Shown here piece by piece: positions 3,765-19,472 of a stretch of DNA of 64,000 nt; position 1 is the stretch's first letter; each line of letters starts with the position of its first letter. Origin of the DNA: Candidatus Altimarinota bacterium (GTDB taxonomy: Bacteria; Patescibacteriota; Gracilibacteria; 1-14-2-50-48-13); NCBI GenBank assembly GCA_046314355.1, contig JBKBWQ010000001.1, forward strand, positions 384,001 through 448,000, written 5' to 3'. Under the pieces are notes generated by a model. That model had not been told where the DNA came from. It saw only the letters and a list, made by a program, of their open reading frames with translations, and made no database searches. The position numbers and the translations under genes are program-made.

Positions 3765-4667
3765 TTATAAGGATCCAGTTCCTAATCTCACCCCATCACA
3801 AACAAAAAGAGCATCAGCAGTAAAACTTCCATCAGCATTTGGTCCACCAACCAGAGTTACTCTCACTCCTGTTTTCAAACTATTTACAGATGCAATACCC
3901 GCTGATGTATTCACTACCGTCTTATCTGTAAAATTAATAACCTGTTTTCTGCCTTCCTTCATTTCAAGTGTAACAGAGTTACTGCCTATACTAATAATTT
4001 CTCCATTGCCACCAGTACCGCCGCATAGATCAGTATTTTGAGAAGTACCGGCTACTGTATTAGGGCGGTCAGATGTAATTCCACCAGTATCTCTGAAATT
4101 CTGCGTTGGCTGACTCTGATGTAAATCCATAGCAACTAAAAGACCTATTATAAAAGTAACAGCGACCACAATAATACCCGAAGTAACTATATTTTTATAA
4201 TTCCTCGCAGACCACCACTTTAAAAGAAGGGTACTTATCCAATAACCAACCATCACACCAAGACCATTCAATATAACATCATCAATATCGAATATACCTA
4301 CATGCAGTAGTACTTGCATCGACTCAATAATAAGACCAGAGAGAGCTGCAAGAATAAGGGCTTTTTTCCATGTCATCTTCCGGTAAAAAAGAGGAACAAG
4401 AAATCCTATTGGTACAAGCAAAGCGATATTTCCAATCAAATTCAGCCCTCCGATAATCAATCCATTTCCACCAAGTACATAGTGAAGAATAGTCTTAAAT
4501 GGCAAAAAATTCGCAGGACGATCTGCCTGCGTTCCACCAAAGTTCAGCATGATTGAACCTACTTTAATCATTGGAACGTCTTTAAGTACCATTACTTTAA
4601 CGAGCAAGGCACTGTAAGCAAGGGTTAGAAAGGCTGAGATTATTTGGAAAGGGAAGAACTTTTTCAT
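3765..4667 (-). CDS. VanZ-family membrane protein with C-terminal DUF5666-like OB domain
   Basis: NFLPFKTI..NLIGNIALLVPIG..IESMQ..GIFDIDDVILNGLG VanZ motifs; C-terminal LKTGVRVTLVG..DGSFTA. Confidence 0.8.
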   Translation of the reverse strand: MKKFFPFQIISAFLTLAYSALLVKVMVLKDVPMIKVGSIMLNFGGTQADRPANFLPFKTILHYVLGGNGLIIGGLNLIGNIALLVPIGFLVPLFYRKMTWKKALILAALSGLIIESMQVLLHVGIFDIDDVILNGLGVMVGYWISTLLLKWWSARNYKNIVTSGIIVVAVTFIIGLLVAMDLHQSQPTQNFRDTGGITSDRPNTVAGTSQNTDLCGGTGGNGEIISIGSNSVTLEMKEGRKQVINFTDKTVVNTSAGIASVNSLKTGVRVTLVGGPNADGSFTADALFVCDGVRLGTGSL

Positions 4668-4729
4668 GTCTGTAGGTTATTAATTGCTTAAGTTCAGAGA
4701 TATTACAATCGTTCTGTTTTCATTTTTAA

Positions 4730-5371
4730 CTACAAATTTCTTTTCTTACTTTCAATCTCAATGAACTCCGGCAAATAATCGGGAGTACATCCTTTTGATA
4801 CGATTTGCCCCTTATAAAGACCTGTTTTCTCGCCGATTGCAATACAGCGTGCTCGGTATTTTTTATCATAGATTCCGATCCACCCCGCAGTGAAATTCAT
4901 TGCCCATTGCACTTCAGGCTCTTCCTTTTCTATTTGTTTTTCAATGGCAGAGAGTAATTCTTCGGTGTTTGAGGGAGGAGTTTGCCCCATCCAGCGTAAA
5001 CGTGCCTGATAATACCAAAATAGTCTCCTTTGAAGCGTAGAAGTACTGTTTTCCCAAGATTCCATCAGTGCTATAGTTCTCTTATCTTTAGAAAGTTGAT
5101 TTGCCATCAACCAGTCTATGAGTTGATTCCGTTCAAAAAATGTATGCTCCTGCATGTCCACAGTAAGCTTATCAATCACCTCTTGTGAAAGAAGCTTATT
5201 ATCTATAATCAAAATAGCCAATTGTCGGTGAAGAAATTGTCCAGTGGACCATAGCTCAATTGCCAGTTCATGATCTTTTTTGATACCCTTGGCAATTTTC
5301 CTTAGATCGCCGAGCTTGGTTTTATTATTGATCTGATCCAAGATCTTTTCGGCTTTTGAAGAGAGTTTCAT
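4730..5371 (-). CDS. DNA alkylation repair (AlkD-like HEAT-repeat) protein
   Basis: KLGDLRKIAK.IKKDHELAIELW, VQWAMNF, IGEK.GLY..SKGCTP.Y motifs; start set to ATG 5371. Confidence 0.8.
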   Translation of the reverse strand: MKLSSKAEKILDQINNKTKLGDLRKIAKGIKKDHELAIELWSTGQFLHRQLAILIIDNKLLSQEVIDKLTVDMQEHTFFERNQLIDWLMANQLSKDKRTIALMESWENSTSTLQRRLFWYYQARLRWMGQTPPSNTEELLSAIEKQIEKEEPEVQWAMNFTAGWIGIYDKKYRARCIAIGEKTGLYKGQIVSKGCTPDYLPEFIEIESKKRNL

Positions 5372-5612
5372 ATTGAACTTTAGATTGCTTATCAAGATAA
5401 AATAATTATGCCTGATATATCGGAAATTTAAAGTCCCTTTTAAGCTTATCTTAAACTTAATGCATCTAATAAAGAGTAATTACTCTAATTTCCTTCAAAA
5501 ACTATCCATGAGCTATCTCTACTTCTTTCTTAGTTTTCGGCTGCATCATTATTAAAAACAACCACTTAATTACTAAGTACTCTACACTAATTACTCAAAT
5601 TTTGAAAAAATT

Positions 5613-5643
5613 TATGGTGGACCGGAAGAGAATCTACTTGAAC
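5613..5643 (+). other. Putative distal attachment site (att hybrid)
   Basis: tatggtgg-accggaagagaatct-acttgaac here versus tatggtgg-gcccagttgg-acttgaac at the tRNA end. Confidence 0.65.
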
Positions 5644-5763
5644 TTCTTTGAAACAAGTCTACTACAAAATGAGCAGCTAAAAAACTTAAATACTGTTCTA
5701 AATTCAATATACACCTCTTCAGAGTATTCGACATCCCCTAAACTGACGAGTATATGCCTATAA
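5614..5763 (+). other. 49-codon open frame, putative displaced C-terminus of the serine recombinase
   Basis: MVDRKRIYLNFFETSLLQNEQLKNLNTVLNSIYTSSEYSTSPKLTSICL*; it begins in the att core in the same phase as recombinase M542-V543. Confidence 0.55.
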
Positions 5764-5949
5764 CTAGGAGTGTATGAACAACTAATTAATTGAGCTCTGT
5801 TTTTTTATAATTAGTACTACAATAGAGAAAATACCATTAACAAAGTTTCCTATTATTGGACAACCTTTCTTCTCTCTTTTTAACCATTAAATGATCTATT
5901 TCTATTATTGTTTTTGCTAAAGTTTTCTCAATATTTACTGTCATCTATC

Positions 5950-7743
5950 ATGTCGATACAATTATCATCAACTGTTACATTTAGATCTATAAACGCATTT
6001 GAAGAGATCACTTTACCTGATTTTGTTGTCATTACAGGAGTAAATGGATCTGGAAAATCACATTTATTGAATGGTATTTCTACTAATAATACTATTCATA
6101 TTTCTTCTAATGGGGCTGAGCTTATCAAAAAAAAGATAGTTAATAGTGCTTCGCTTGCTCCTTCGGGTAACTACCAAGTAACTCAACAGGATATATTATC
6201 GCGTTCACAAAATGTGTTAAATATATATCAAAATTATAAAAAGGAAAAAGAAAGAAATCCTTCTTATACAGTTGAACAAGCGTTTAGTCCTCATAGAAAC
6301 CTTTTCAAAACCGTAACAAGACTTGCTAGTACGGCAGGAAAACATATTGAGGAATTAGAGAGTAATGACTTTTACGATTCGTATCCGCTTGCTGATGGGC
6401 TAGATGAACAAGATATATTTTACCAAAATTTTTCATTTTTATTTAAACATTATCATACAAAGTATCTAGATAACAAATTTGCTCAGTTTATGAATGCTAG
6501 CGAAGGAGGAGCAATAAACTTTCTTACACATGAGCAGTTTGTCGCCAAGTATGGGGAAGCACCATGGAACTTTGTAAATAAGATACTCCAAGAAGCAAAT
6601 CTTGGGTATCACGTTATTTCACCAGAAAAAAATCTAAATCGTGATGCGCCATTTGAGCTAAAACTAATAAGCGACACAAACGGGATACAAATAATGTTTG
6701 ATGATTTATCTTCCGGAGAGAAGGTTTTAATGTCTCTAGCATTATCAATTTATAACTCAACATTAGAAGATATTGATTTCCCTCAAGTTTTATTAATGGA
6801 TGAACCAGATGGACCATTACATCCATCAATGGCAAAACAGTTCCTTGATGTTATACAGAATGTATTTGTAAAAGAGAAAGGGGTTAAAGTTATTATAACA
6901 ACTCACTCTGCTTCAACAGTAGCGCTTGCACCTGAAGAAGCAATTTACATAATGAACAAGACATCTCCACGTCTAGAGAAATCAACAAAAGATAAGGCAT
7001 TAAAAGTATTAACAGCTGGCGTCCCCTCTTTAAGTATTAACTATGAGAATAGAAAACAGGTCTTTGTAGAAAGCAAGTATGATGCCAGTATCTATGATAA
7101 AACATATACAGTAATCAAACAATATCTTGAGCCTGAGATCTCCCTTAGCTTTATTTCTTCAGGAAAAAAAGGAGTTGGTAGTTGTTCACAAGTCGTTGAC
7201 GTCGTAACACAGTTACATAGCTTTGGTAATCATGATATATTTGGAATAATAGATAGAGATAGTAATAATAAAGAAAGTGAAAAGGTTTTTATACTCGGAA
7301 CTGATCAGCGTTATAGTATAGAAAATTACTTATTTGATCCTGTTGTCATAGCTGCATTTTTGCTTAAAGAAAAAATGATATCTAAACATCAAGTTGGTCT
7401 TTCAAATGAAGAGAACTATATTGATATTAGAAATTTTGAAGGTGATAGACTACAAGTTGTAGTAGATAAATTCATTCCTCTTTTAAATGATGCAAGTCTG
7501 ATTACTACTAATACTCGAACCTGCTATTACTTAAATGACAAGTCAGTAGATATCCCTACAGGATTTCTTGAAACAAATGGTCACGAGTTAGAGACAAAAC
7601 TTAAACAAGTGTTTCCTGAGCTGAATAAGTATCATCAAGAAGGTGACTTAAAACTAGCCATTATTGACCATGTATTTGAAGATATGCATGCTATTATTCC
7701 AAAAGATTTTGTATTACTTTTTACAAAGATTCAAAATAATTGA
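5950..7743 (+). CDS. ABC/AAA_21 ATPase fused to TOPRIM/DUF4435-like nuclease (PARIS AriA-AriB-like or OLD-like defence protein)
   Basis: Walker A GVNGSGKS, signature LSSGE, Walker B LLMDEPD, ITTHS; C-terminal VFVESKYD, GIIDRD, YSIENYLFDP; start set to ATG 5950. Confidence 0.75.
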   Translation: MSIQLSSTVTFRSINAFEEITLPDFVVITGVNGSGKSHLLNGISTNNTIHISSNGAELIKKKIVNSASLAPSGNYQVTQQDILSRSQNVLNIYQNYKKEKERNPSYTVEQAFSPHRNLFKTVTRLASTAGKHIEELESNDFYDSYPLADGLDEQDIFYQNFSFLFKHYHTKYLDNKFAQFMNASEGGAINFLTHEQFVAKYGEAPWNFVNKILQEANLGYHVISPEKNLNRDAPFELKLISDTNGIQIMFDDLSSGEKVLMSLALSIYNSTLEDIDFPQVLLMDEPDGPLHPSMAKQFLDVIQNVFVKEKGVKVIITTHSASTVALAPEEAIYIMNKTSPRLEKSTKDKALKVLTAGVPSLSINYENRKQVFVESKYDASIYDKTYTVIKQYLEPEISLSFISSGKKGVGSCSQVVDVVTQLHSFGNHDIFGIIDRDSNNKESEKVFILGTDQRYSIENYLFDPVVIAAFLLKEKMISKHQVGLSNEENYIDIRNFEGDRLQVVVDKFIPLLNDASLITTNTRTCYYLNDKSVDIPTGFLETNGHELETKLKQVFPELNKYHQEGDLKLAIIDHVFEDMHAIIPKDFVLLFTKIQNN

Positions 7744-7753
7744 ATACAGTTAT

Positions 7754-7825
7754 ATTCGTCAAATAGAACGTAAGGTGAGCTTTGATCAGATCATCAAAAA
7801 TATCTTCTTGAACTCTTTTATATTA
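7754..7825 (+). pseudogene. Relic fragment of a paralogous serine recombinase
   Basis: Encodes IRQIERKVSFDQIIKNIFLN versus IRKIETMESLDKIIGNIFLN at 15278-15347; 17-nt exact match aaatatcttcttgaact. Confidence 0.75.
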
Positions 7826-7860
7826 GCAATTAATTATTCTCAAACATATAGCTCAATTCT

Positions 7861-10800
7861 GTGAATAACATCATATTAAAAATCAAACTTTTTTACCAAA
7901 AAATATTATACTTTTTTTCTAAAAGAATGGATTACGACTCATGGTCTGCACAGCATCTCTCAAGCATAACAAGTAAGGCAGGTGAACGTTATAGTCCTAG
8001 GCTAAATATTGGTACTTCAACTTCAGAGTTATTTGATGATATGAGCAGATCAAAGATTTTCTATACCAATGTTAGGAAAAAATATGGGAATCTTATTAGA
8101 GAATTTAGACGAATTGATGCTAATCATGAGAGTGAGACACTTCAAGAACATTACAATAATGTTGCTTCTAAATTTAGTACTCTACTAGAAACAATAGGAG
8201 CTATAAAAGAATATAGTACAGCTACTATCCCATGGGATAGTATTGCAGAATGTTCTAAAAAGTTAGTAGAAAGTCTACGTGCCTTTACATATATTCTCCA
8301 AGAAGAAGAGATAAAGGAAAGCAATAAAGTAACAGATTCAAAAGATAATGGAACTGGTTACCGTTATACTCTTTCTGAAAGGTATAAATCAGATCGACAA
8401 CACTGTTATAGAGTAATGGAAATGGTTAACTATTTTTTTAAATATTCAACTAGTAGCGCCGCTGAGTTAACAAATAATCCATTTTTACTTTTAACCGGTT
8501 CCGCCGGTAGTGGAAAAACTCATCTTTTATGTGACCTTATTGAAAACAGAATAAATGGAGCTATTAAGCTACCAACTTTTTTAGTATTTGGTGAGTTATT
8601 CTCAAATAGTGACAATAAAGATTTCTGGTCTCAATTCATTGAACAGTTGAACTTAGAAAATACAACTAATAATAAAGAAGGTTTCTTACATGAAATTAAC
8701 CAATTAGGAAAGGAACGTAATTGTCGTTCTTTAATTATCATTGATGCACTAAACGAAAATATACTGCATTCACCTTTATTTTGGAAAAATAATATTACAA
8801 GTATACTCTCTGACATAAAGAAATATCCCAATATTGGATTCGTCATCAGCATTAGGGGCGGGTTTGAAGAAGATGTTTTAACTGAAGACCAGAAAAAAGA
8901 GTTTACTTTATTTGAACATAAAGGTTTTCTCTTTAAAGAATGGGAAGCCATATATAAGTTTTTTAGTGAATTTTCATTACCCTTACCAGAACTACCTCTA
9001 CTTGTACCTGAGTTTCAGAACCCATTGTTTCTTCTATTATTTTGTAAGGCTTTTAAAAAGAAAAAGAATAAACAGAACAAACAAATCTTTAGAGGCCATG
9101 AAGGTGCTACTTATATTTTTGAAAACTTTGTTGATAGTGTTTCAGAGAAAATTGCAGATACATTTAGTATACCAAACGGGTCTGGTAAAAATATCTGGGA
9201 TTTAGTTATTGAGAAAGTAGCTGAAAGTATGGTTCAGGAGAATAGTGATTTTATATTGGAAGATAAGCTTATAGAAATAATTAGGAATGCATTCCCACAT
9301 ATTGAAGGCATGAAGCTAATTATAGCATTAGAAAATAATATGCTCTTAACAAAGATTCCATATAATAAAACTTTTCGATATAGATTTCCTTTTCAAAAGT
9401 TCAGTGATCATTTAATTGGAAGATTTATTTTCAAAAAATATGAAGCTAAATATGGCAAACAAAATAAAAATATTACTACCGCGATAGAGTTTTTTTCTAA
9501 AGATACAGACTTAGGAACATTCTTATTCAAACATGTAAATATAGGCATCATTCAGGCACTCTCAATTCAATGTCCAGAGCACCTTAAAGGTATAGAATTC
9601 ATAGAAGTCTTACCTTATTTTGATGAAGATCCATACTTTTTAGATATTATGAAAGAAGCATTTGTAGAAAGCATAATATGGAGAAATCCTAAAGCCTTCT
9701 CAAAAGATTTGCTAAATACACTCCGTATCGTTAACGATCATATTATTACATCAACTAGAACTAACGACGCTTTCTTAAATGCCTTACTTACAATATCACA
9801 AGTTCCAACTCATCCTTTCAATGCTCAATTTCTATATAAACATCTGAACGATATGGATATGCCAGACCGTGATGCATGGTGGTCATCATTCTTGCATAGA
9901 GAATTTGAGAATAGAAGTGCAGTAGATAGAATTCTTGGATGGGTCAATACAAGTCAAGCTTCATCAGTAGTAAAAGAAGAAGCCCTCTTTTTAATTTCAG
10001 TCACTTTGTCATGGTTTCTTACATCATCTAATCGCTACATTAGAGATAAAGCAACTAAGGGACTTGTAATAATCTTAAATAAAAATATTGCTGTCTTATA
10101 TAAACTATTAAAAAGGTTTGAAGATACTAATGATTTATATGTTCTAGAGCGATTATGTGCTGTCGCTTATGGATGTGCACTACTTAACAAAGAGGATTCT
10201 TTAAATTTAAAGATACTAGGTGAGTATTTATATTCAACTTTTTTCATAACTAAATCACCGCTTCCACATATACTAATAAGAGATTATGCACGAGGTACTA
10301 TAGAAGCTATTACAGCTAATCAAATCGTATTAGACATCGAAGTAATAAATACAATCCCACCTTATAAAAGTTTATGGCCAAAAGAAATTCCTACAGAAGA
10401 AGAGTTGAAGACAAAATACTATGTAAATAAGGACTATTCGGCAATCTGGTCATCGTTAATGTATAAATATGGAGGATTTCCAGCTGATTTTGGAAATTAC
10501 GTCGTAAGCTCCTCCTTAGGTGCATGGACTAATAAGTCGCTAGAGTCTTTAGAAATAGCTAAAGAAAAGTTACTAGAAAAATTTCTCGCAGATCTAAATG
10601 AACATCAAAAAGAATCATGGAAAAAGATTTCTCCTTTTTATGGTTTAGACTTAGCATCTCTATTTAAAGACTTAGAGATTCAATCTGATAAACTTTCTAA
10701 TAAAGAAGAATTAAAAGAAAATCTACACGCTGAGAAGGATAGAAGAGAAAAGGCTATTACTAACTTTAAAGCGGCATTATCGTCAGCTCAGTGTCTCTAT

Positions 10801-12024
10801 TTTGAAAAGGAATTGCAACCTTATCTCAACGAAAATTTAACTATGAATGATCCAACAGAGTTTTTTGATACAGGTATTGCCCAAAGGTGGATTCTTAATA
10901 GAGTAATAGAACTTGGCTTTGATCCAAGTATACATAATGATTTCGACAATAGTATTAACTACGGAGCGGATCGTACTGATCATAAAGCAGAGCGGATAGG
11001 AAAAAAATATCAATGGATAGCATTTCATGAATTCATTGCATTAGTATCAGATCATTTCGCATTTAGAGGTGAACGGCTTACAAATAACTCTGAACATAAT
11101 TATGAAGGACCGTGGATACCTTATATACGTGACATAGATCCATCGTTTATCATAAAAGATGATACTAATTTAAAAAGATCTATAAATTTATCAGATTGGA
11201 AAAAAAAGTACTTGGATTATTCTGCTTGGCTAGAAGGTAAAACTTATAGCGACTGGCTCACGCAATGTGACGATATGCCAGATATAAAGCATGTAATTAA
11301 TTTATCTGATGATAATAACAATGAGTGGTTCACATTAGAAGGTAACTTTACGTGGGAAGAAGAGGTTCCTCCTGAGCATGAAAAATACACTATTGCAACT
11401 AGAGCTGCTTTTTATCTAGTAAAAAGCTATCTTGTAAAAAAAGAAGATTCCAAAAGATTCTATACCTGGGGAGAAGCACAAGATTTTATGGGAAACTGGA
11501 TGCCACAATCAAATAACTTTTATGAAGTTTTCTTAGGTGAATATCCTAATTCGTTAGCTTTTAATAACATCAGAGATGATTACAATGTCAATAGACCTGT
11601 TGGAGATGAAAATATTCCAGTCATAGTAACAGACGATATCTACTTAAATGAATTTACATTAGATTGTTCATATAACCATAGTATCTCAATACATTTGCCG
11701 TCAAAATGGTTAGTTGAGCAAATGTCATTAAAGCAACAATATACGGATGGAAGATTTTTTGATGAAAGCGGAGAATTAGTTGCTATGCCTTATAATATAT
11801 TTGATGCTGAACGCCCTTCCATGTTATTAATAAATAAAGATAAATTCTCTCGTTTTTTAGATAAAAAAGGTTATAGTATCTTTTGGATTTGCCAAGGTAA
11901 AAAACACATTATAGGTGGAGATAGAACAGCCAAAGAGGGTAGAGTAAAAATGAATGGTATCTTTACACTTAATGATAAAGGTAAAATCATAGGTAAGCTA
12001 GATAGAAAATTTCTTAAAGATTAA
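7861..12024 (+). CDS. STAND NTPase, AVAST/Avs2-like antiphage protein
   Basis: Walker A GSAGSGKT, Walker B IIIDALNE, NPLFLLLFC, RDKATKGL, DLYVLERL..VAYG, ERIGKKYQWIAFHE, RDIDPS; 1387 aa. Confidence 0.7.
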   Translation: MNNIILKIKLFYQKILYFFSKRMDYDSWSAQHLSSITSKAGERYSPRLNIGTSTSELFDDMSRSKIFYTNVRKKYGNLIREFRRIDANHESETLQEHYNNVASKFSTLLETIGAIKEYSTATIPWDSIAECSKKLVESLRAFTYILQEEEIKESNKVTDSKDNGTGYRYTLSERYKSDRQHCYRVMEMVNYFFKYSTSSAAELTNNPFLLLTGSAGSGKTHLLCDLIENRINGAIKLPTFLVFGELFSNSDNKDFWSQFIEQLNLENTTNNKEGFLHEINQLGKERNCRSLIIIDALNENILHSPLFWKNNITSILSDIKKYPNIGFVISIRGGFEEDVLTEDQKKEFTLFEHKGFLFKEWEAIYKFFSEFSLPLPELPLLVPEFQNPLFLLLFCKAFKKKKNKQNKQIFRGHEGATYIFENFVDSVSEKIADTFSIPNGSGKNIWDLVIEKVAESMVQENSDFILEDKLIEIIRNAFPHIEGMKLIIALENNMLLTKIPYNKTFRYRFPFQKFSDHLIGRFIFKKYEAKYGKQNKNITTAIEFFSKDTDLGTFLFKHVNIGIIQALSIQCPEHLKGIEFIEVLPYFDEDPYFLDIMKEAFVESIIWRNPKAFSKDLLNTLRIVNDHIITSTRTNDAFLNALLTISQVPTHPFNAQFLYKHLNDMDMPDRDAWWSSFLHREFENRSAVDRILGWVNTSQASSVVKEEALFLISVTLSWFLTSSNRYIRDKATKGLVIILNKNIAVLYKLLKRFEDTNDLYVLERLCAVAYGCALLNKEDSLNLKILGEYLYSTFFITKSPLPHILIRDYARGTIEAITANQIVLDIEVINTIPPYKSLWPKEIPTEEELKTKYYVNKDYSAIWSSLMYKYGGFPADFGNYVVSSSLGAWTNKSLESLEIAKEKLLEKFLADLNEHQKESWKKISPFYGLDLASLFKDLEIQSDKLSNKEELKENLHAEKDRREKAITNFKAALSSAQCLYFEKELQPYLNENLTMNDPTEFFDTGIAQRWILNRVIELGFDPSIHNDFDNSINYGADRTDHKAERIGKKYQWIAFHEFIALVSDHFAFRGERLTNNSEHNYEGPWIPYIRDIDPSFIIKDDTNLKRSINLSDWKKKYLDYSAWLEGKTYSDWLTQCDDMPDIKHVINLSDDNNNEWFTLEGNFTWEEEVPPEHEKYTIATRAAFYLVKSYLVKKEDSKRFYTWGEAQDFMGNWMPQSNNFYEVFLGEYPNSLAFNNIRDDYNVNRPVGDENIPVIVTDDIYLNEFTLDCSYNHSISIHLPSKWLVEQMSLKQQYTDGRFFDESGELVAMPYNIFDAERPSMLLINKDKFSRFLDKKGYSIFWICQGKKHIIGGDRTAKEGRVKMNGIFTLNDKGKIIGKLDRKFLKD

Positions 12025-12054
12025 AAAACATTAATATATTTTATAAATCATTAC

Positions 12055-12207
12055 ATGGCTCAAGAATCAACACCTCCTACAGGCTCTCTGCCTCAGATAA
12101 TCGCAGCATCACAAAACACAAGTAGTCAATTACCACCAAATGTAGTACTTGGCAATAACGGGGAAAGAATTACCTTAACAGGAGCTAGTCATGTACAGCC
12201 TAAGTAG
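12055..12207 (+). CDS. Small hypothetical protein, 50 aa
   Basis: Not in the track: MAQESTPPTGSLPQIIAASQNTSSQLPPNVVLGNNGERITLTGASHVQPK*, filling the gap between co-directional genes. Confidence 0.5.
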   Translation: MAQESTPPTGSLPQIIAASQNTSSQLPPNVVLGNNGERITLTGASHVQPK

Positions 12208-12253
12208 TACTTGAACTAACACTAATAGTAGATATGTATTTAATTACATATAT

Positions 12254-12667
12254 ATGGGGGATCAGAAAATTAAAGTGTATCAAAGAGTAAGATATCTTGT
12301 TTCACTTGGTATTAGTTCACCTACTATAATCTTAGAAGAGATTCCAGAAATAAAGCAGTGGAGAACGGCTAAGAAATACATTGATCAAGCAATAGAAGAA
12401 ATTACTTTACATGAGACTGATACAGCAATAGAACGTAGCCACATGATAGAGTCTTTAAAAGAACTTAGAAGTAATCTAGCTTTAAAGATAAGCAAAACTG
12501 CTCATTTGAATCAATACATAGGAGGAATCAAGCAATTACTTTCTATTAATGCTCAGTTAATAGAACTGAAAGGATTGAAGATTATGAAAGATGAAAAGAA
12601 GCAGTCGTGGGAAGAGTATATTAGAGATGCAGAAGTATCATTAGATCTTCTCCAAGCTTCAGCATAA
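12254..12667 (+). CDS. Hypothetical helical protein with possible N-terminal HTH
   Basis: 137-aa ORF followed by a terminator; no certain family. Confidence 0.6.
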   Translation: MGDQKIKVYQRVRYLVSLGISSPTIILEEIPEIKQWRTAKKYIDQAIEEITLHETDTAIERSHMIESLKELRSNLALKISKTAHLNQYIGGIKQLLSINAQLIELKGLKIMKDEKKQSWEEYIRDAEVSLDLLQASA

Positions 12668-12700
12668 AAAAGCCCTAGTAGAAATACTAGAGCTTTTTTT
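12666..12700. terminator. Bidirectional intrinsic terminator
   Basis: aaaaagccctagta-gaaa-tactagagcttttttt between convergent genes. Confidence 0.8.
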
Positions 12701-12714
12701 ATATGTTTAAACTC

Positions 12715-13551
12715 TTATTCAATAATTTGTATATTATCACCATCTAGGGTCATTGTAGCCACGATAGTATTCGTTACAATAGCTCCAAAAGCATTTGTGC
12801 CTCTAAATGCTGTAGTTACTCTCATCGTGCTTTCTGCCTCATTTACAGCATAGGTAGTCATCACATGCTCATAGCTTTTAGGATTATTCATACCTGCTTT
12901 AATAAGCTTTGTAAGTTCAATATGTGATCCATCCCATTTACTAAACTGTTTTTCAATTCTTTCAGTCTTTTGTTTAGCTTCGTCTTCTTTCTGTTTAATA
13001 GCCTCAGCTTCTTTCTTCTTTGCTTCCTCCTCTTTTTGAGCTGTGATGTATTCTTCACGCTTATTAATATTCACACTTAATTTTGCTATAAAAATCTTAT
13101 TTAAGTTAGCATTATCTACATACACTTTCTCAAGTTTACCTTCTTTCAAGAGAGTCACTTCATTGTCATTGAGCTGCATTAAAGAGTCTTTCAGGAATGC
13201 TTCAGACTGTACCTTCTTAATCTTCTCTTCTAGAGCAATGGCTGGATTGTCCTTTGAACTATATAGCTCCTTTGATTGATTAACTGATTCTAAGGCTTTA
13301 TCTATCTGTTGTTCGCTCAAATACGTCTCTGCTTGTACTGCTAGTTTCAGTGCATCTTCTTTATTTTTTGCTGCGTTATTTCCTATACTAATGAATACAA
13401 GAATACAAAGAACTGTTATTCCTATTTTTATCCACTTATTCCATGTTGTTTTGGTCCATACTAAGTAGGGAACCAAGACATAAAAAAATACAATCGTGAG
13501 TAGAATACCCCACCATTTAGAATACCAATTCTTCTTCACAGTTGCATCCAT
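12715..13551 (-). CDS. Membrane-anchored hypothetical protein (2 TM, TPR-like, conserved-looking C-terminal domain)
   Basis: Two N-terminal TM helices; coiled coil; IEKQFSKWDGSH..MNNPKSYEHV.T..FRGTNAFGAIV. Confidence 0.75.
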   Translation of the reverse strand: MDATVKKNWYSKWWGILLTIVFFYVLVPYLVWTKTTWNKWIKIGITVLCILVFISIGNNAAKNKEDALKLAVQAETYLSEQQIDKALESVNQSKELYSSKDNPAIALEEKIKKVQSEAFLKDSLMQLNDNEVTLLKEGKLEKVYVDNANLNKIFIAKLSVNINKREEYITAQKEEEAKKKEAEAIKQKEDEAKQKTERIEKQFSKWDGSHIELTKLIKAGMNNPKSYEHVMTTYAVNEAESTMRVTTAFRGTNAFGAIVTNTIVATMTLDGDNIQIIE

Positions 13552-13569
13552 AGAAAAAAGTTAACAAAC

Positions 13570-13710
13570 AAAAAAGGACGTACGTGGTTGACCCAATACG
13601 CCTGCCATACGGTAGCCTTATTGGCACGTACGCCCACCTCTGGCAATAAAGCAGGAATGAGCGTGCCACATGGCATGTTTAGGCAAATTGGGTCAACACT
13701 TGGAGTGTAG
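13570..13710 (-). ncRNA. Candidate structured cis-regulatory RNA upstream of the 12715-13551 gene
   Basis: GC-rich patch with nested inverted repeats and an alternative stem ending in a U6 tract; see findings. Confidence 0.45.
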
Positions 13711-13804
13711 CAGATATCCAATACATCGCAATCTTAAGATAAAAAACACTACTAACAAAAAAGTCTTCTGCTAAAATCTACTTATCAATTTCTGTATCTA
13801 TACA

Positions 13805-15466
13805 ATGACAATACAAAGCCCTGAGGAGCTTCTCGAACTCTTTCTTGAGGAACAATCCACGAATTCGGATTATATAGCTCCTGAGAGCTATAAATACGTT
13901 ATTTACGTGCGTAAATCACAGGAAAGCCAAGAAAGGCAAGTACGTTCATTAGGTGATCAAGTTGCGGAGTGCAACGCACTTGCAAAAGGTAAATTTAAGA
14001 TAGTAGATATTATTCAAGAATCTGAGTCAGCAAAGGAACCCGGTATCCGTCCTAAGTTCAACAAAATGCTCGAAGACTTCAGGAAAGGAAAGTATGATGG
14101 GATAATAGCTTGGCATCCCGATCGATTAGCTCGAAACATGAAAGAGGGCGGAGAAATCATTGATATGATTGATAAAGGAATTATTAAAGATTTGAAATTT
14201 GTTAGTTATACATTTACCAATGATACATCTGGAAAAATGCTACTAGGTATGGCATTTGTTTTCTCAAAGCAGTATTCAGATAAACTAAGTGATGATGTCA
14301 CAAGAGGTAATCTAAGAAGTCTAGGAGATGGTAAGTTCTTAAATAAAGGTAAACATGGTTATGTTAAAGATAGAAATTTATTACTCAGAGCAGATGGAGA
14401 AAGCTTTATGCTTTTAAAGAAGGCATGGGATATGCGCCTTGATAGTAAGAACCTAGAACAAATTGCTCAGTTTTTAAATGATAATAACTACACAGTTAAG
14501 TACTCTGATAAACATGAGCGTAAAATATTTACAGTTGATAAAAAGTTTTTATCAAACTTTTTTAAAGATCCTTTGTACTGTGGAGTTCTTCATTATGGAG
14601 ATGAATTCGTAAACTTAAATGAGAAATATGATTTTGTACCTATGGTCAGCGCAGAAACATACTGCAAAGTAAATAAGATTAGTACACGTACTTTCAATGC
14701 CAGAAGAACAGAGAAACAATCTATACGAGCTAACTTACTTAGAGGGCAAGTATTCTGTGGGTATTGTGAAGAACCTTTTGTATCAGGCCTTACAAAGAAG
14801 AAAAATGCTGATTCTATCACTGAGTACTATTACTACAGATGTGATAACGACTCTTGTAGTCAGTTAAATAAATCTGTTAGAGCTCACGTAGTAACAAATT
14901 TTGTATATGACTTCCTAGATACTCATTCAATTGCAACTGAGGAAATATATAAGATTTATAAAGAGCAATCATCCATCCTCATTAAAGATAAGATTGCAGA
15001 ACAGGACAGTAGAGCAAAGTCCTTAAATACGAAACTGAATAGTAATGAAGAATCAATTAAAAACACAAAGAGCCTTCTAACTACTATGATAAATAAAGCA
15101 GACTCAGGCGATCATATTATAATACAGGACCTTGAAGATGACTTGAAAAAGCAATTAGCTCTAAAGCATCAGTTGAAACAAGAGATAGATGACGTTCACG
15201 AAGTAAAAAAACAAATCAAGACCGTTATTTTAGATTTAGCGAAATATCTTGAACTTTCTGCGGAATTGCCCTCTAGGATTCGAAAAATAGAGACTATGGA
15301 GAGCCTTGATAAGATCATTGGAAATATCTTCTTGAACTTTTATATTAAGGACAAGAAAGTGACTTCCTATCAGCTAAAAGAGCCTTTTGCATCTTTATTT
15401 AAGGCTTCAATTTCTAAGAAATCGTCTATGGTGGGCCCAGTTGGACTTGAACCAACGACCAATTGA
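13805..15466 (+). CDS. Large serine recombinase (integrase)
   Basis: YVRKS catalytic Ser, ESAKEPG.RP.F, DRLARN, recombinase domain, CGYC..YYRC..C zinc ribbon, coiled coil; the last 12 codons overlap the tRNA antisense. Confidence 0.93.
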   Translation: MTIQSPEELLELFLEEQSTNSDYIAPESYKYVIYVRKSQESQERQVRSLGDQVAECNALAKGKFKIVDIIQESESAKEPGIRPKFNKMLEDFRKGKYDGIIAWHPDRLARNMKEGGEIIDMIDKGIIKDLKFVSYTFTNDTSGKMLLGMAFVFSKQYSDKLSDDVTRGNLRSLGDGKFLNKGKHGYVKDRNLLLRADGESFMLLKKAWDMRLDSKNLEQIAQFLNDNNYTVKYSDKHERKIFTVDKKFLSNFFKDPLYCGVLHYGDEFVNLNEKYDFVPMVSAETYCKVNKISTRTFNARRTEKQSIRANLLRGQVFCGYCEEPFVSGLTKKKNADSITEYYYYRCDNDSCSQLNKSVRAHVVTNFVYDFLDTHSIATEEIYKIYKEQSSILIKDKIAEQDSRAKSLNTKLNSNEESIKNTKSLLTTMINKADSGDHIIIQDLEDDLKKQLALKHQLKQEIDDVHEVKKQIKTVILDLAKYLELSAELPSRIRKIETMESLDKIIGNIFLNFYIKDKKVTSYQLKEPFASLFKASISKKSSMVGPVGLEPTTN

Positions 15467-15505
15467 TTATGAGTCAACTGCTCTAACCAACTGAGCTATG
15501 GGCCC
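15429..15505 (-). tRNA. tRNA-Ile2 (CAT anticodon, lysidine type)
   Basis: GGGCCCATAGCTCAGTTGGTTAGAGCAGTTGACTCATAATCAATTGGTCGTTGGTTCAAGTCCAACTGGGCCCACCA; cloverleaf, encoded CCA, closely resembles ileX-type tRNAs. Confidence 0.9.
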
Positions 15506-15560
15506 GTGAAAACACGTAGGTAATGTAGCAGTGGGGGAGAGAAAAATCAAGGAATTTAGG

Positions 15561-15594
15561 AAAAAGCATTACATCTATAGATATAATGCTTTTT
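15561..15594. terminator. Intrinsic terminator downstream of the 63-aa ORF
   Basis: aaaaagcatta...taatgcttttt hairpin. Confidence 0.6.
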
Positions 15595-15600
15595 AGAAGA

Positions 15601-15792
15601 TTATTTTTTTAGAAACAAAGGACCCGTGTGTCTTACTACAGGAGGTTTAAGATCTTTCTGGGACTTTATAATAAATCCCTCAGTTATGGTAGTGGTTTCA
15701 GGATTCTTTTCTTTGAGAATTCCTTTTTTAGTTCTATCAAATACTTGTGATGCATCCTGTCCTGGAACAATATAGCTTTTTCTTTTTGCCAT
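15601..15792 (-). CDS. Small basic hypothetical protein
   Basis: 63 aa, upstream AAAGGA SD-like sequence, followed by a terminator. Confidence 0.55.
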   Translation of the reverse strand: MAKRKSYIVPGQDASQVFDRTKKGILKEKNPETTTITEGFIIKSQKDLKPPVVRHTGPLFLKK

Positions 15793-16115
15793 GTTCTATC
15801 CTTTCTAGATCGACATAGGGTAACTTTACCCTCTAATTATAATAATCTGCCTCTTTTGAAAAACATATCCTCCCTAGCGTCGTTGGTAAGGAGATATGTA
15901 CATCAAAAAGATGACTCGTGGAGTATAATGACTTCTTTTTTTCGGTCAATGGAAAACAATTATTTTTTATTGCAAATACCTAGGATAGTACCTACAGTAC
16001 GATTTTTTCACTAAGTTCATCTAACAGTAGGAAGGGGCTTTAGGTAACGCAATTGCTTGCTCTTAAAAGTAAGAGGGGTATAGTAAAATTTGATTTATAC
16101 CATAACACTTACCCT

Positions 16116-16463
16116 ATGAGATTTCTCGTACATCTTATCGTCAGTGCACTTGCAATCTTTTTGACTGCTTATCTCTTCCCAAATAGTGTAGTAGTCACAG
16201 GATTCGGTACTGCGATTATAGTAGCTATCATACTTGCTGTGCTGAACGCAGTAGTACGACCTATCCTTCTGCTTCTCTCTCTCCCATTGAATGTTCTTAC
16301 CCTTGGACTTTTCACCTTCGTTATCAATGCGATCATTATCCTGCTCGCAAGTGGACTCTCTCTTGGATTCCATGTGGATAACTTCATTACAGCGCTGCTC
16401 TTTAGTATCGTGCTCTCTGTAATCAATGCATTGCTCCTTGGACTTCTCGGAGTAGAAGAGTAA
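16116..16463 (+). CDS. YvlD/DUF360 (phage holin 4 family) membrane protein
   Basis: LNAVVRPILLLLSLPLNVLTLGLFTFVINA motif; start set to ATG 16116. Confidence 0.88.
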   Translation: MRFLVHLIVSALAIFLTAYLFPNSVVVTGFGTAIIVAIILAVLNAVVRPILLLLSLPLNVLTLGLFTFVINAIIILLASGLSLGFHVDNFITALLFSIVLSVINALLLGLLGVEE

Positions 16464-19187: not shown

Positions 19188-19235
19188 TTCTTCGCTTCTC
19201 ACGAAGCTACGAATGGCACAGCCAGAATGGAATGA

Positions 19236-19259
19236 ATCTTCGCAGGCGAAGATTTTTTT
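19236..19259 (+). terminator. tRNA-fMet terminator
   Basis: aatcttcgc-ag-gcgaagatt followed by a T tract. Confidence 0.65.
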
Positions 19260-19472
19260 AATATACAGCGAAGAATGTCCCTCATAGCCTACACCTAACT
19301 ATAAGTTTCTGGTTCTTTGTGGCGTAGAGGGACGCCAAAGCATAAAGCATTGAAGTATTTTGGTACGCCTCTAAGTTTATTGTAATTCTTTTTTATAATA
19401 GAATACAAAAATTTACCCCTCACTACTAACTACTCCCACTATCACTCACACTCCGAGCCCTCGAGCCTCCTA

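What the first reader, a model, noticed from the sequence alone, without database searches (positions are those of the whole stretch)
5613..15505. Serine integrase whose C-terminus is swapped by its own recombination: tRNA-antisense tail when integrated, 49-aa tail when excised
Seen: the recombinase frame runs through the core TATGGTGG (15427-15434) and ends MVGPVGLEPTTN*, read from the antisense of tRNA-Ile2. The same core recurs 9.8 kb away (5613-5620), where ATG GTG opens a 49-codon stop-free frame in AT-rich DNA (MVDRKRIYLNFFETSLLQNEQLKNLNTVLNSIYTSSEYSTSPKLTSICL*). This frame is in the same phase relative to the core. Excision through the core would leave an intact tRNA and give a circle encoding a 590-aa enzyme (541+49) instead of 553 aa. 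Known: att sites inside genes act as switches in SSV1-type tyrosine integrases and in the mycobacteriophage BPs repressor. Inference: a state-dependent integrase isoform (tail as directionality element, degron or activity switch) that could replace a separate RDF. Caveat: the tail may belong to the earlier paralogous recombinase whose relic is at 7754-7825.
Basis: partly seen in the sequence, partly recalled or inferred. Interest (0 to 1): 0.88.

Follow-up and report, generated by a model that had tools for sequence, protein, structure and literature searches.

The report
Serine integrase gene overlapping its tRNA target
A 9.8-kb anti-phage defence island sits in the end of a tRNA gene, and because its integrase gene runs across the recombination site, the enzyme gets a different tail when the island is integrated than when it is excised; this layout is typical of its family, but no function for the tail swap is shown.

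Summary
TATGGTGG lies at 5613-5620 and 15427-15434. The 553-aa large serine recombinase (13805-15466) reads through the second copy into the antisense of tRNA(CAU) (15429-15505). The first copy opens an in-phase 49-codon frame.

Two independent results fix the island borders:
- The 59 nt left of 5613 are the trailer that follows CCA at nine other tRNA genes of this genome.
- A 65%-identical homolog (P0002, 583 aa) carries the integrase end and a related 48-aa tail as one reading frame.

The layout is family-wide. In 60 of 77 full-length relatives, mostly Patescibacteria, the integrase gene ends at an antisense tRNA.

The "switch" reading is not supported beyond this lineage:
- The conserved fold ends just before the crossover.
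- In relatives with a junction of the excised type, the tails are 2 to about 20 residues and unrelated.
- Only P0002 shares this tail.
- A relic of an older integrase at 7754-7825, and tandem arrays in relatives, show that the island is composite.

No circle or empty-site junction was seen in the one run that holds this DNA. I read it as a new variant of a known kind: an att site embedded in the integrase's own 3' end, with a tail swap that is probably incidental but may matter in this lineage.

The parts
5554..5612 (-). Native 3' trailer of the tRNA (motif A), now separated from it by the island. This is the host-side arm of attL.
   Evidence: The same about 60-nt sequence directly follows CCA at 9 other tRNA genes of the genome.
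5613..5620 (+). attL core TATGGTGG: the reverse complement of tRNA CCACCA plus TA of the trailer.
   Evidence: Identity with attR ends on both sides of these 8 bp.
5614..5763 (+). 49-codon frame in phase with the integrase. Its first about 30 nt are the element-side half-site (P'), with ACTTGAAC at 5636-5643.
   Evidence: P0002 has a homologous 48-aa tail fused to its integrase.
5908..7743 (+). Cargo: 611-aa ABC/OLD-like ATPase. Its best defence-model matches are AriAB and ATPase-Toprim.
   Evidence: Pfam AAA_21, AAA_15 and SMC_N. PADLOC AriAB 7e-28 and ATPase-Toprim_I-B 1e-25.
7754..7825 (+). Relic of the C-terminal domain of a second, related serine recombinase, lying inside ORF 7664-7864.
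   Evidence: Aligns with 15280-15350. 86% identity over 47 nt.
7861..12024 (+). Cargo: Avs2 (AVAST type 2) anti-phage protein, 1387 aa.
   Evidence: NCBIfam NF041813 at 1127.5 bits, cut-off 1000. PADLOC Avs2 at 1166 bits.
12254..12667 (+). 137-aa ORF of unknown function.
   Evidence: No Pfam, PADLOC or NCBIfam match. No homolog in 107 related loci.
12715..13551 (-). 278-aa ORF of unknown function.
   Evidence: No family match. One weak tblastn hit only.
13566..13714 (+). About 150-nt repeated, G+C-richer element upstream of the integrase gene.
   Evidence: A second copy, 79% identical, lies elsewhere in the genome. RNA fold z = -2.6. No Rfam match.
13805..15466 (+). Large serine recombinase (integrase), 553 aa as integrated. 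Its last 12 codons are read from the core and the tRNA antisense.
   Evidence: Pfam Resolvase, Recombinase and Zn_ribbon_recom. Invariant S38 and four Cys. The model of its homolog matches solved serine-integrase-DNA complexes.
15427..15434 (+). attR core TATGGTGG.
15429..15505 (-). tRNA with anticodon CAT, intact; probably tRNA-Ile2. ACTTGAAC of its T arm is at 15445-15452.
   Evidence: ARAGORN. Rfam tRNA at 76.2 bits. TilS is present.

Best explanation
Window 5621-15426 is a composite integrative island. It carries anti-phage cargo (an OLD-like ATPase and Avs2) and is mobilised by a large serine recombinase. It is inserted at the very 3' end of a tRNA(CAU) gene.

The element's attachment site (attP) lies inside the last codons of the integrase gene. 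Recombination with the tRNA end, with the crossover somewhere in TATGGTGG, leaves the tRNA intact. It also replaces everything after residue 543 of the enzyme (the two core codons M542 and V543 are the same in both forms). The integrated copy ends with 10 further residues read from the tRNA antisense. The excised circle would encode 47 other residues there.

This gene-over-att layout is the normal state of a large recombinase family, mostly from Patescibacteria, that targets many different tRNAs. The swapped part lies beyond the last conserved helix, and it is neither conserved in length nor in sequence across the family. So the swap is most likely a by-product of embedding attP in the 3' end of the integrase gene, not a general control device. 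In this lineage the long tail has stayed open in two diverged elements and may have a local role.

Shown: the borders, the layout, its frequency in the family, and the tail in a relative. Inferred: the crossover position, present-day activity, and any function of the tail.
For: Borders:
- The trailer motif at 5554-5612 matches the sequence that follows CCA at 9 other tRNAs, and this tRNA has no trailer.
- G+C drops inside the island.
- P0002 joins the ...KSSMV end to a tail starting DRK..YLNFF.

Enzyme:
- Three domains of large serine recombinases, invariant Ser and Cys residues, and Foldseek E-values of 1e-18 to 1e-10 to solved serine-integrase-DNA complexes.

Family:
- 60 of 77 loci whose match reaches residue 520 or beyond have an antisense tRNA at the gene's end. 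In 59 of the 60 the stop lies at or beyond the tRNA 3' end.
- 3 loci are cut by the contig end and 14 have no tRNA.
- 21 anticodons are used.
- The tails read from the tRNA antisense have a median of about 8 codons, range 2.7 to 40.7.

Incidental reading:
- The P0002 model is confident up to helix 522-534, has pLDDT below 50 over 535-555, and shows a lone helix at 553-578 with pLDDT of about 50-70.
- Relatives with attP-type junctions end 2 to about 20 residues after the crossover, with unrelated sequence.
- No further protein shares the tail.

Composite island:
- The relic at 7754-7825, and tandem arrays at one tRNA in L105, L065 and L037.
Against: - The tail is not plainly neutral. Beyond its first 12 residues it still resembles the P0002 tail more than shuffles do (18 of 2000 reach the score). 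Both tails are open for 48-49 codons in AT-rich DNA (130 of 5000 shuffles stay open), and they end within one codon of each other. This points to some coding constraint.
- No conserved neighbouring gene that could serve as an RDF was found for this element.
- No empty site could be examined, because no close relative's genome is held.
- Dyad symmetry of the inferred sites is weak.
- The loci are MAG records, several are near-duplicates (L105 and L115, L113 and L114, L109 and L110, L111 and L112, L039 and L108), and they are related to each other, so the family counts are not independent events.
Confidence: 0.7

Rival explanations
1. State-dependent isoform switch. The 47-residue tail made only from the circle changes the activity, partner choice or stability of the integrase. 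Integration and excision are then biased by which junction the gene's 3' end sits in, and no separate RDF is needed.
For: - Two diverged elements keep a tail of 48-49 codons open, with weak but non-random similarity beyond the half-site.
- A helix is predicted in the tail.
- No homolog of the island's unknown ORFs was found in 107 related loci.
- The one small ORF family that recurs upstream of integrase genes (14 of 76 loci) is absent from this window.
- The precedent of attP inside an ORF producing two protein forms in phage BPs (passages of PMC3694055).
Against: - Only two sequences carry this tail.
- Relatives with attP-type junctions have tails of 2 to about 20 unrelated residues.
- The tail lies outside the conserved fold and its first 20 residues are modelled as disordered.
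- No ending like an ssrA tag is visible in either form (by eye).
- The tail may derive from the older element whose integrase is now a relic.
Confidence: 0.17
2. The tail frame belongs to the older, now degraded element (relic at 7754-7825). The present integrase had a different, now lost, P' partner. On this reading the 590-aa fusion is a chimera that never existed as a native protein, and the island may no longer excise.
For: - The relic of a second recombinase lies between the two cargo genes.
- Relatives show tandem arrays in which the distal integrase abuts the next element.
- No joint was seen in the contigs of the only run that holds this DNA, which is weak evidence.
Against: P0002, 65% identical to the present integrase, has the same KSSMV end contiguous with this tail type. 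So this end and this tail are a cognate pair at least at the level of the lineage.
Confidence: 0.1
3. The 8-bp repeat is a coincidence, and the island ends elsewhere or is not a discrete element.
For: TATGGTGG occurs 4 times in the window against 1.16 expected. Repeat searches alone do not single out 5613.
Against: The tRNA trailer motif abuts the core at 5613. P0002 joins the two ends. G+C changes at both borders.
Confidence: 0.03

Closest known systems
Large serine integrases of phages and islands (Bxb1, PhiC31, Listeria A118/LI, SPbeta-type)
   Same: The catalytic, recombinase and zinc-ribbon domains with an inserted coiled coil. Short att sites. A half-site motif (ACTTGAAC) lies 5 bp farther from the core on the element side than on the host side. 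This fits the attP/attB geometry that I recall from the LI integrase-DNA work.
   Different: The target is the 3' end of a tRNA gene. attP lies inside the enzyme's own last codons, so the C-terminus depends on the state. No RDF was identified. The family was not found in IMG/VR viral contigs with the patterns used. tRNA is not mentioned in the main text of the large recombinase survey PMC10083194 (search listing); its supplements were not seen.
SSV1-type archaeal tyrosine integrases
   Same: attP lies inside the integrase gene and the target is a tRNA gene (recalled; the review PMC8371274 was seen only in a search listing).
   Different: That is a tyrosine recombinase, and integration splits the gene into two parts. 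Here 541 of 590 codons stay together and all conserved domains are kept.
Integration-dependent immunity of mycobacteriophage BPs and relatives
   Same: attP lies inside an ORF, so viral and prophage genomes express different C-termini (passages of PMC3694055).
   Different: There the gene is the repressor, the enzyme is a tyrosine integrase, and the part removed is a proven degradation tag. Here the gene is the integrase itself and no tag function is shown.
tRNA-targeting genomic islands with tyrosine integrases (Islander/TIGER type)
   Same: Insertion at a tRNA 3' end that restores the tRNA, cargo of defence genes, and tandem accretion at one tRNA (introduction of PMC12884075; tandem arrays here).
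   Different: The recombinase family differs. There are only 8 bp of identity instead of a longer tRNA segment. The integrase gene reads into the tRNA on the opposite strand.

Membership tests
Large serine recombinase | N-terminal resolvase-type catalytic domain with the nucleophilic serine | tested here: met
   PF00239 at 5.7e-20, residues 32-168. R36 and S38 are invariant in 40 sequences.
Large serine recombinase | Recombinase domain followed by a zinc-ribbon domain with four Cys | tested here: met
   PF07508 and PF13408 are above their cut-offs. C318, C321, C346 and C351 are invariant.
Large serine recombinase | Long coiled coil inserted in the zinc-ribbon domain, and overall fold like solved integrase-DNA complexes | tested here: met
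   Tested on homolog P0002: helices 378-426 and 431-466. Foldseek hits 9y66, 9dxd, 9rah and 4kis at E 1e-18 to 1e-10.
Large serine recombinase | Simple attP and attB with a short crossover and offset half-site motifs | tested here: inconclusive
   The shared core is 8 bp. ACTTGAAC lies 15 nt after the core in P' and 10 nt after it in B'. The left arms and the overall dyad symmetry are weak. No recombination data exist.
Large serine recombinase | Separate recombination directionality factor for excision | not testable with these tools
   RDFs are unrelated in sequence (passage of PMC3694055). No conserved neighbour was found for this element.
SSV1-type integrase arrangement | Tyrosine recombinase whose gene is split by integration | tested here: not met
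   The enzyme is a serine recombinase. The integrated gene keeps 541 of 590 codons and all domains.
Integration-dependent switch (BPs type) | attP inside an ORF, so that integrated and free genomes encode different C-termini | tested here: met
   and the fused form in P0002. This holds at the sequence level only.
Integration-dependent switch (BPs type) | The exchanged C-terminus carries a degradation tag or otherwise changes activity | not testable with these tools
   No ending like an ssrA tag is seen by eye. The complex prediction gave no answer.
Avs2 (AVAST type 2), cargo | Full-length match above the curated cut-off | tested here: met
   NF041813 at 1127.5 bits against a cut-off of 1000, covering residues 39-1373.

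The most novel reading that the evidence does not exclude
In this integrase lineage, and perhaps in parts of the wider tRNA-targeting family, the att site inside the gene makes the enzyme report its own state. The circle-encoded long tail tunes the coiled-coil-controlled choice between integration and excision, or the enzyme's lifetime. Directionality would then be set without a separate RDF.
Probability: 0.12. Interest if true: 0.85.

Novelty: new variant of a known kind. Interest (0 to 1): 0.55.

Why it matters
Large serine integrases are prized genome-engineering tools, and how their direction is controlled is an active question. Here a large, mostly uncultured-bacteria family places attP inside the integrase's own 3' end and targets tRNA genes. 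As a result, att sites can be read straight from genomes: 60 of 77 loci.

This gives three things:
- A ready catalogue of candidate integrase/attB pairs in Patescibacteria, where genetic tools are scarce.
- A natural experiment on whether residues after the zinc-ribbon domain matter.
- A route by which defence genes (Avs2, OLD-like ATPase) move and pile up at tRNA genes in tiny genomes.

In the paper searches I found no description of serine integrase genes that overlap a tRNA target. These were word searches of open-access texts only, and supplements were closed.

Tried and rejected
1. Reads. One search found a single run that holds the DNA (X1, possibly its source), plus two runs of the same study. 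Laying the Logan contigs of X1-X3 on 4600-16400 showed no joints. Contigs drop rare forms, so this says nothing about excision.

2. Empty site in relatives. The left flank has no homolog in 40 related genomes, and the right flank matches only through the tRNA. There is no same-genus genome, so the test was impossible.

3. Finding attL in relatives by local alignment, by core plus shifted T-arm scan and by a core match of at least 9 of 10 in the tRNA-Glu clade. Scores were no better than the reverse-complement or shuffle controls. Even the window's true attL is not picked out. The few strong hits were paralogous tRNAs (L045, L055, L027) or a relic of an integrase end (L037). So I could not run a family-wide test of in-frame tail length at attL.

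4. More carriers of the tail:
- The word-index search with P0002 residues 500-583 gave 2 hits, P0002 itself and one irrelevant protein.
- The search with the 49-aa tail among longer proteins gave none of 4 candidates.
- In the HMMER search of 1.84 billion representatives with P0002, none of the best 150 aligns past query residue 556.
- The JGI metagenome scan gave 27 loci, at best 40% identity over a full-length match.
- In IMG/VR, one distant hit with A4 and none with A3.

5. Complex prediction of integrase residues 1-541 with the 49-aa tail gave no answer (0.24 against a mark of 0.32). This is neither for nor against binding.

6. Dyad-symmetry scan of the in-silico attP and attB: at best 13 of 29 matches, not informative.

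7. Promoter and terminator scans around 5300-6000 and 13400-15700 gave nothing beyond chance.

8. Rfam gave no match at attL or upstream of the integrase gene.

10. Supplements of papers are closed. The att-site tables of PMC10083194 and the TIGER/Islander lists could contain tRNA-targeting serine integrases.

11. The tail lengths that I read for P0023, P0078, P0103 and P0110 (about 23-47 aa with endings unlike tRNA antisense) are judged by eye, without DNA. I give them little weight.

Full report
**What is in the sequence.** TATGGTGG stands at 5613-5620 and at 15427-15434. ARAGORN finds a tRNA with anticodon CAT on the minus strand at 15429-15505, and Rfam scores it at 76 bits. Six bases of the core are therefore the reverse complement of the tRNA's terminal CCACCA. 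ORF 13805-15466 (553 aa) carries the Resolvase, Recombinase and zinc-ribbon domains of large serine recombinases. It runs through the core as ATG GTG and stops 10 codons later in the tRNA antisense. At 5614 the same ATG GTG opens 49 codons, while the other two frames stop after 8 and 11 codons.

**Is it more than chance?** The 8-mer alone is not. It occurs four times in the window against 1.16 expected. The open frame is mildly unusual: 130 of 5000 shuffles of 5620-5900 stay open for 47 or more codons. Two other results carry the case.

- The tRNA trailer. A search with the left flank showed that window 5554-5620 recurs in the same genome, and aligned copies each abut a tRNA-like 3' end. With the whole genome laid, ARAGORN lists 39 tRNAs. 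Nine are followed directly after CCA by this "motif A" trailer, and at least 14 by a second conserved trailer. The tRNA at 15429-15505 has neither: downstream of it comes integrase coding sequence. So 5554-5612 is this tRNA's own trailer, displaced by 9.8 kb.
- A fused relative. Among 1207 homologs, the closest, P0002 (583 aa, 65% identity), runs from the shared ...KSSMV end straight into a 48-aa tail. Ten of that tail's first 12 residues match those of the 5614 frame. The two island ends are thus contiguous in a relative.

G+C of 30-34% over most of the island (up to 0.40 at the start of the integrase gene), against mostly 39-43% outside, agrees with this.

**The tRNA.** The genome encodes TilS. 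Its other CAT tRNAs have 3' ends that I recall as typical of the initiator and the elongator. The plus strand over the tRNA weakly matches the plastid ycf2 leader family (49 bits, below the gathering score); from memory, that leader lies next to trnI-CAU. tRNA-Ile2 is therefore likely but was not tested.

**The island.** The cargo is a 611-aa OLD/AriAB-like ATPase and a full-length Avs2 (1127.5 bits against a cut-off of 1000). There are also two ORFs without matches. Between the two defence genes lies a relic of the C-terminal domain of a related recombinase at 7754-7825. The genome has no second recombinase of this family.

**The family.** Scans of one genome per species (80 loci) and of JGI metagenomes (27 loci) gave 107 related loci.
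- In a first pass, 65 of 108 rows (including the window) had the ORF stop inside an antisense tRNA. Ten rows had no stop before the contig end.
- I then restricted the count to the 77 loci whose match reaches query residue 520 or beyond. Of these, 60 have an antisense tRNA whose 3' end lies at the end of the gene, 3 are cut by the contig end and 14 have none. In 59 of the 60 the stop lies at or beyond the tRNA end. The tRNAs carry 21 different anticodons.
- The part read from the tRNA has a median of about 8 codons, range 2.7 to 40.7.
- Many of the 120 listed homologs end in peptides typical of T-arm antisense (by eye).
- Several loci are near-duplicates and all are related, so these are not independent events. 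Even so, reading into the tRNA is clearly the rule for this family, whose members are mostly labelled Patescibacteria.
- No member was found in IMG/VR with the patterns used.

**Junctions of the excised type in relatives.** Among the 14 loci without a tRNA are family members whose integrase end runs into non-tRNA DNA: L105 and L115, L106, L065, L113 and L114, L054, L102.
- L105 has a second recombinase gene and then tRNA-Pro downstream.
- L065 has the end of a second recombinase next to tRNA-His, 9.8 kb downstream.
- L037 has a relic of an integrase end plus core 8 kb upstream of the intact gene.

These are tandem arrays in which the distal integrase abuts the next element, that is, a P-P' junction. 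Their tails after the crossover are about 0-6 residues (L037, L106, L105, L065) or about 20 (L113, L054), and they are unrelated to each other. By eye, the P' arms of L106, L105 and L065 carry a T-arm-like GAAC motif 4-6 bp farther out than in the tRNA of their nearest integrated relatives. In the window, ACTTGAAC lies 15 nt after the core at attL and 10 nt after it at attR. This 5-bp offset is what I recall for attP versus attB half-sites of large serine integrases. It is a lead, not a test, and the left arms and the overall dyad symmetry are weak.

**The tail.**
- The AlphaFold model of P0002 (50-sequence alignment, mean pLDDT 83) is confident through helix 522-534. It falls below 50 for residues 535-555, which span the crossover and the start of the tail, and then shows one helix at 553-578 with pLDDT of about 50-70.
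- The model matches solved serine-integrase-DNA complexes. So all conserved parts lie before the crossover, and the integrated enzyme lacks none of them.
- Beyond the first 12 residues, which coincide with the P' half-site, the two tails still score above shuffles (18 of 2000 reach the score). They end within one codon of each other.
- No other protein carries this tail.
- The complex prediction gave no answer.

**Reading.**
- Shown: a serine-recombinase island in the tRNA end, an att site inside the integrase's last codons, two predicted C-termini, and the same layout across the family.
- Inferred: the crossover lies within the 8 bp, the island can still excise, and the tail has or lacks a function.

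I consider a by-product the most likely account. The tails are outside the fold and are variable and short in most relatives. I leave roughly one chance in six that this lineage's long tail modulates the enzyme. The relic and the tandem arrays make it plausible that the tail arrived with an older element. P0002 nevertheless shows that end and tail are a cognate pair in this lineage.

**Comparison with what is known.** The enzyme is a member of the large serine recombinases (all tested features met). The arrangement works like SSV1 (att inside the integrase gene, tRNA target) and like BPs (att inside an ORF, giving two C-termini; passages of PMC3694055). It is a member of neither, because the recombinase class differs and the gene is not split. 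My paper searches and the passages read turned up no account of serine integrase genes overlapping a tRNA target. Supplements were closed and only open texts were searched.

**Verdict.** I rate it a new variant of a known kind, with moderate interest.

Noticed in passing
window 19188-19270 and 5554-5612; genome-wide in G000: Nearly all tRNA genes with a recognisable trailer carry one of two conserved sequences directly after CCA. Motif A is about 60 nt and follows 9 tRNAs. Motif B is about 83 nt, and blastn finds 14-15 copies at 81-99% identity. Neither has an Rfam match. Their function is unknown; terminator, processing signal or small RNA are possibilities.
   Followed up: partly
window 13566-13714; second copy at L129 about 3829-3981 (G000:C1:698328-698480): A G+C-richer element of about 150 nt with terminal inverted repeats lies upstream of the integrase gene. 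It recurs at 79% identity beside an unrelated locus (DUF4352/SLH protein, PD-(D/E)XK-like protein, AAA_15 ATPase). As RNA it folds with z = -2.6. It has no Rfam match.
   Followed up: partly
L105, L065, L037 (and window 7754-7825): Elements of this recombinase family accumulate in tandem at one tRNA, leaving junctions of integrase end plus next element. This implies that a hybrid site can be used as a target, which is not expected of serine integrases.
   Followed up: partly
L035, L040, L068, L111, L112, L118 and others, just upstream of the integrase gene: A family of small ORFs (mostly 52-87 aa, fused to a longer protein in two loci) with a conserved C-terminal NAT(T/S)ISDNNGGRI motif occurs in 14 of 76 loci. 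In several it lies directly upstream of the integrase gene, on the same strand. It is a candidate regulator or directionality factor for the clade that targets tRNA-Pro. The window has none.
   Followed up: no
window 15431-15505, + strand: The antisense of the tRNA matches Rfam RF04354 (plastid ycf2 5' UTR) at 49 bits, below the gathering score. This probably reflects only similarity of the tRNA to plastid trnI-CAU.
   Followed up: no
window 16053-16463: A holin-like protein (PF04020, Phage_holin_4_2, 1.4e-30) is encoded just outside the island, on the far side of the tRNA.
   Followed up: no
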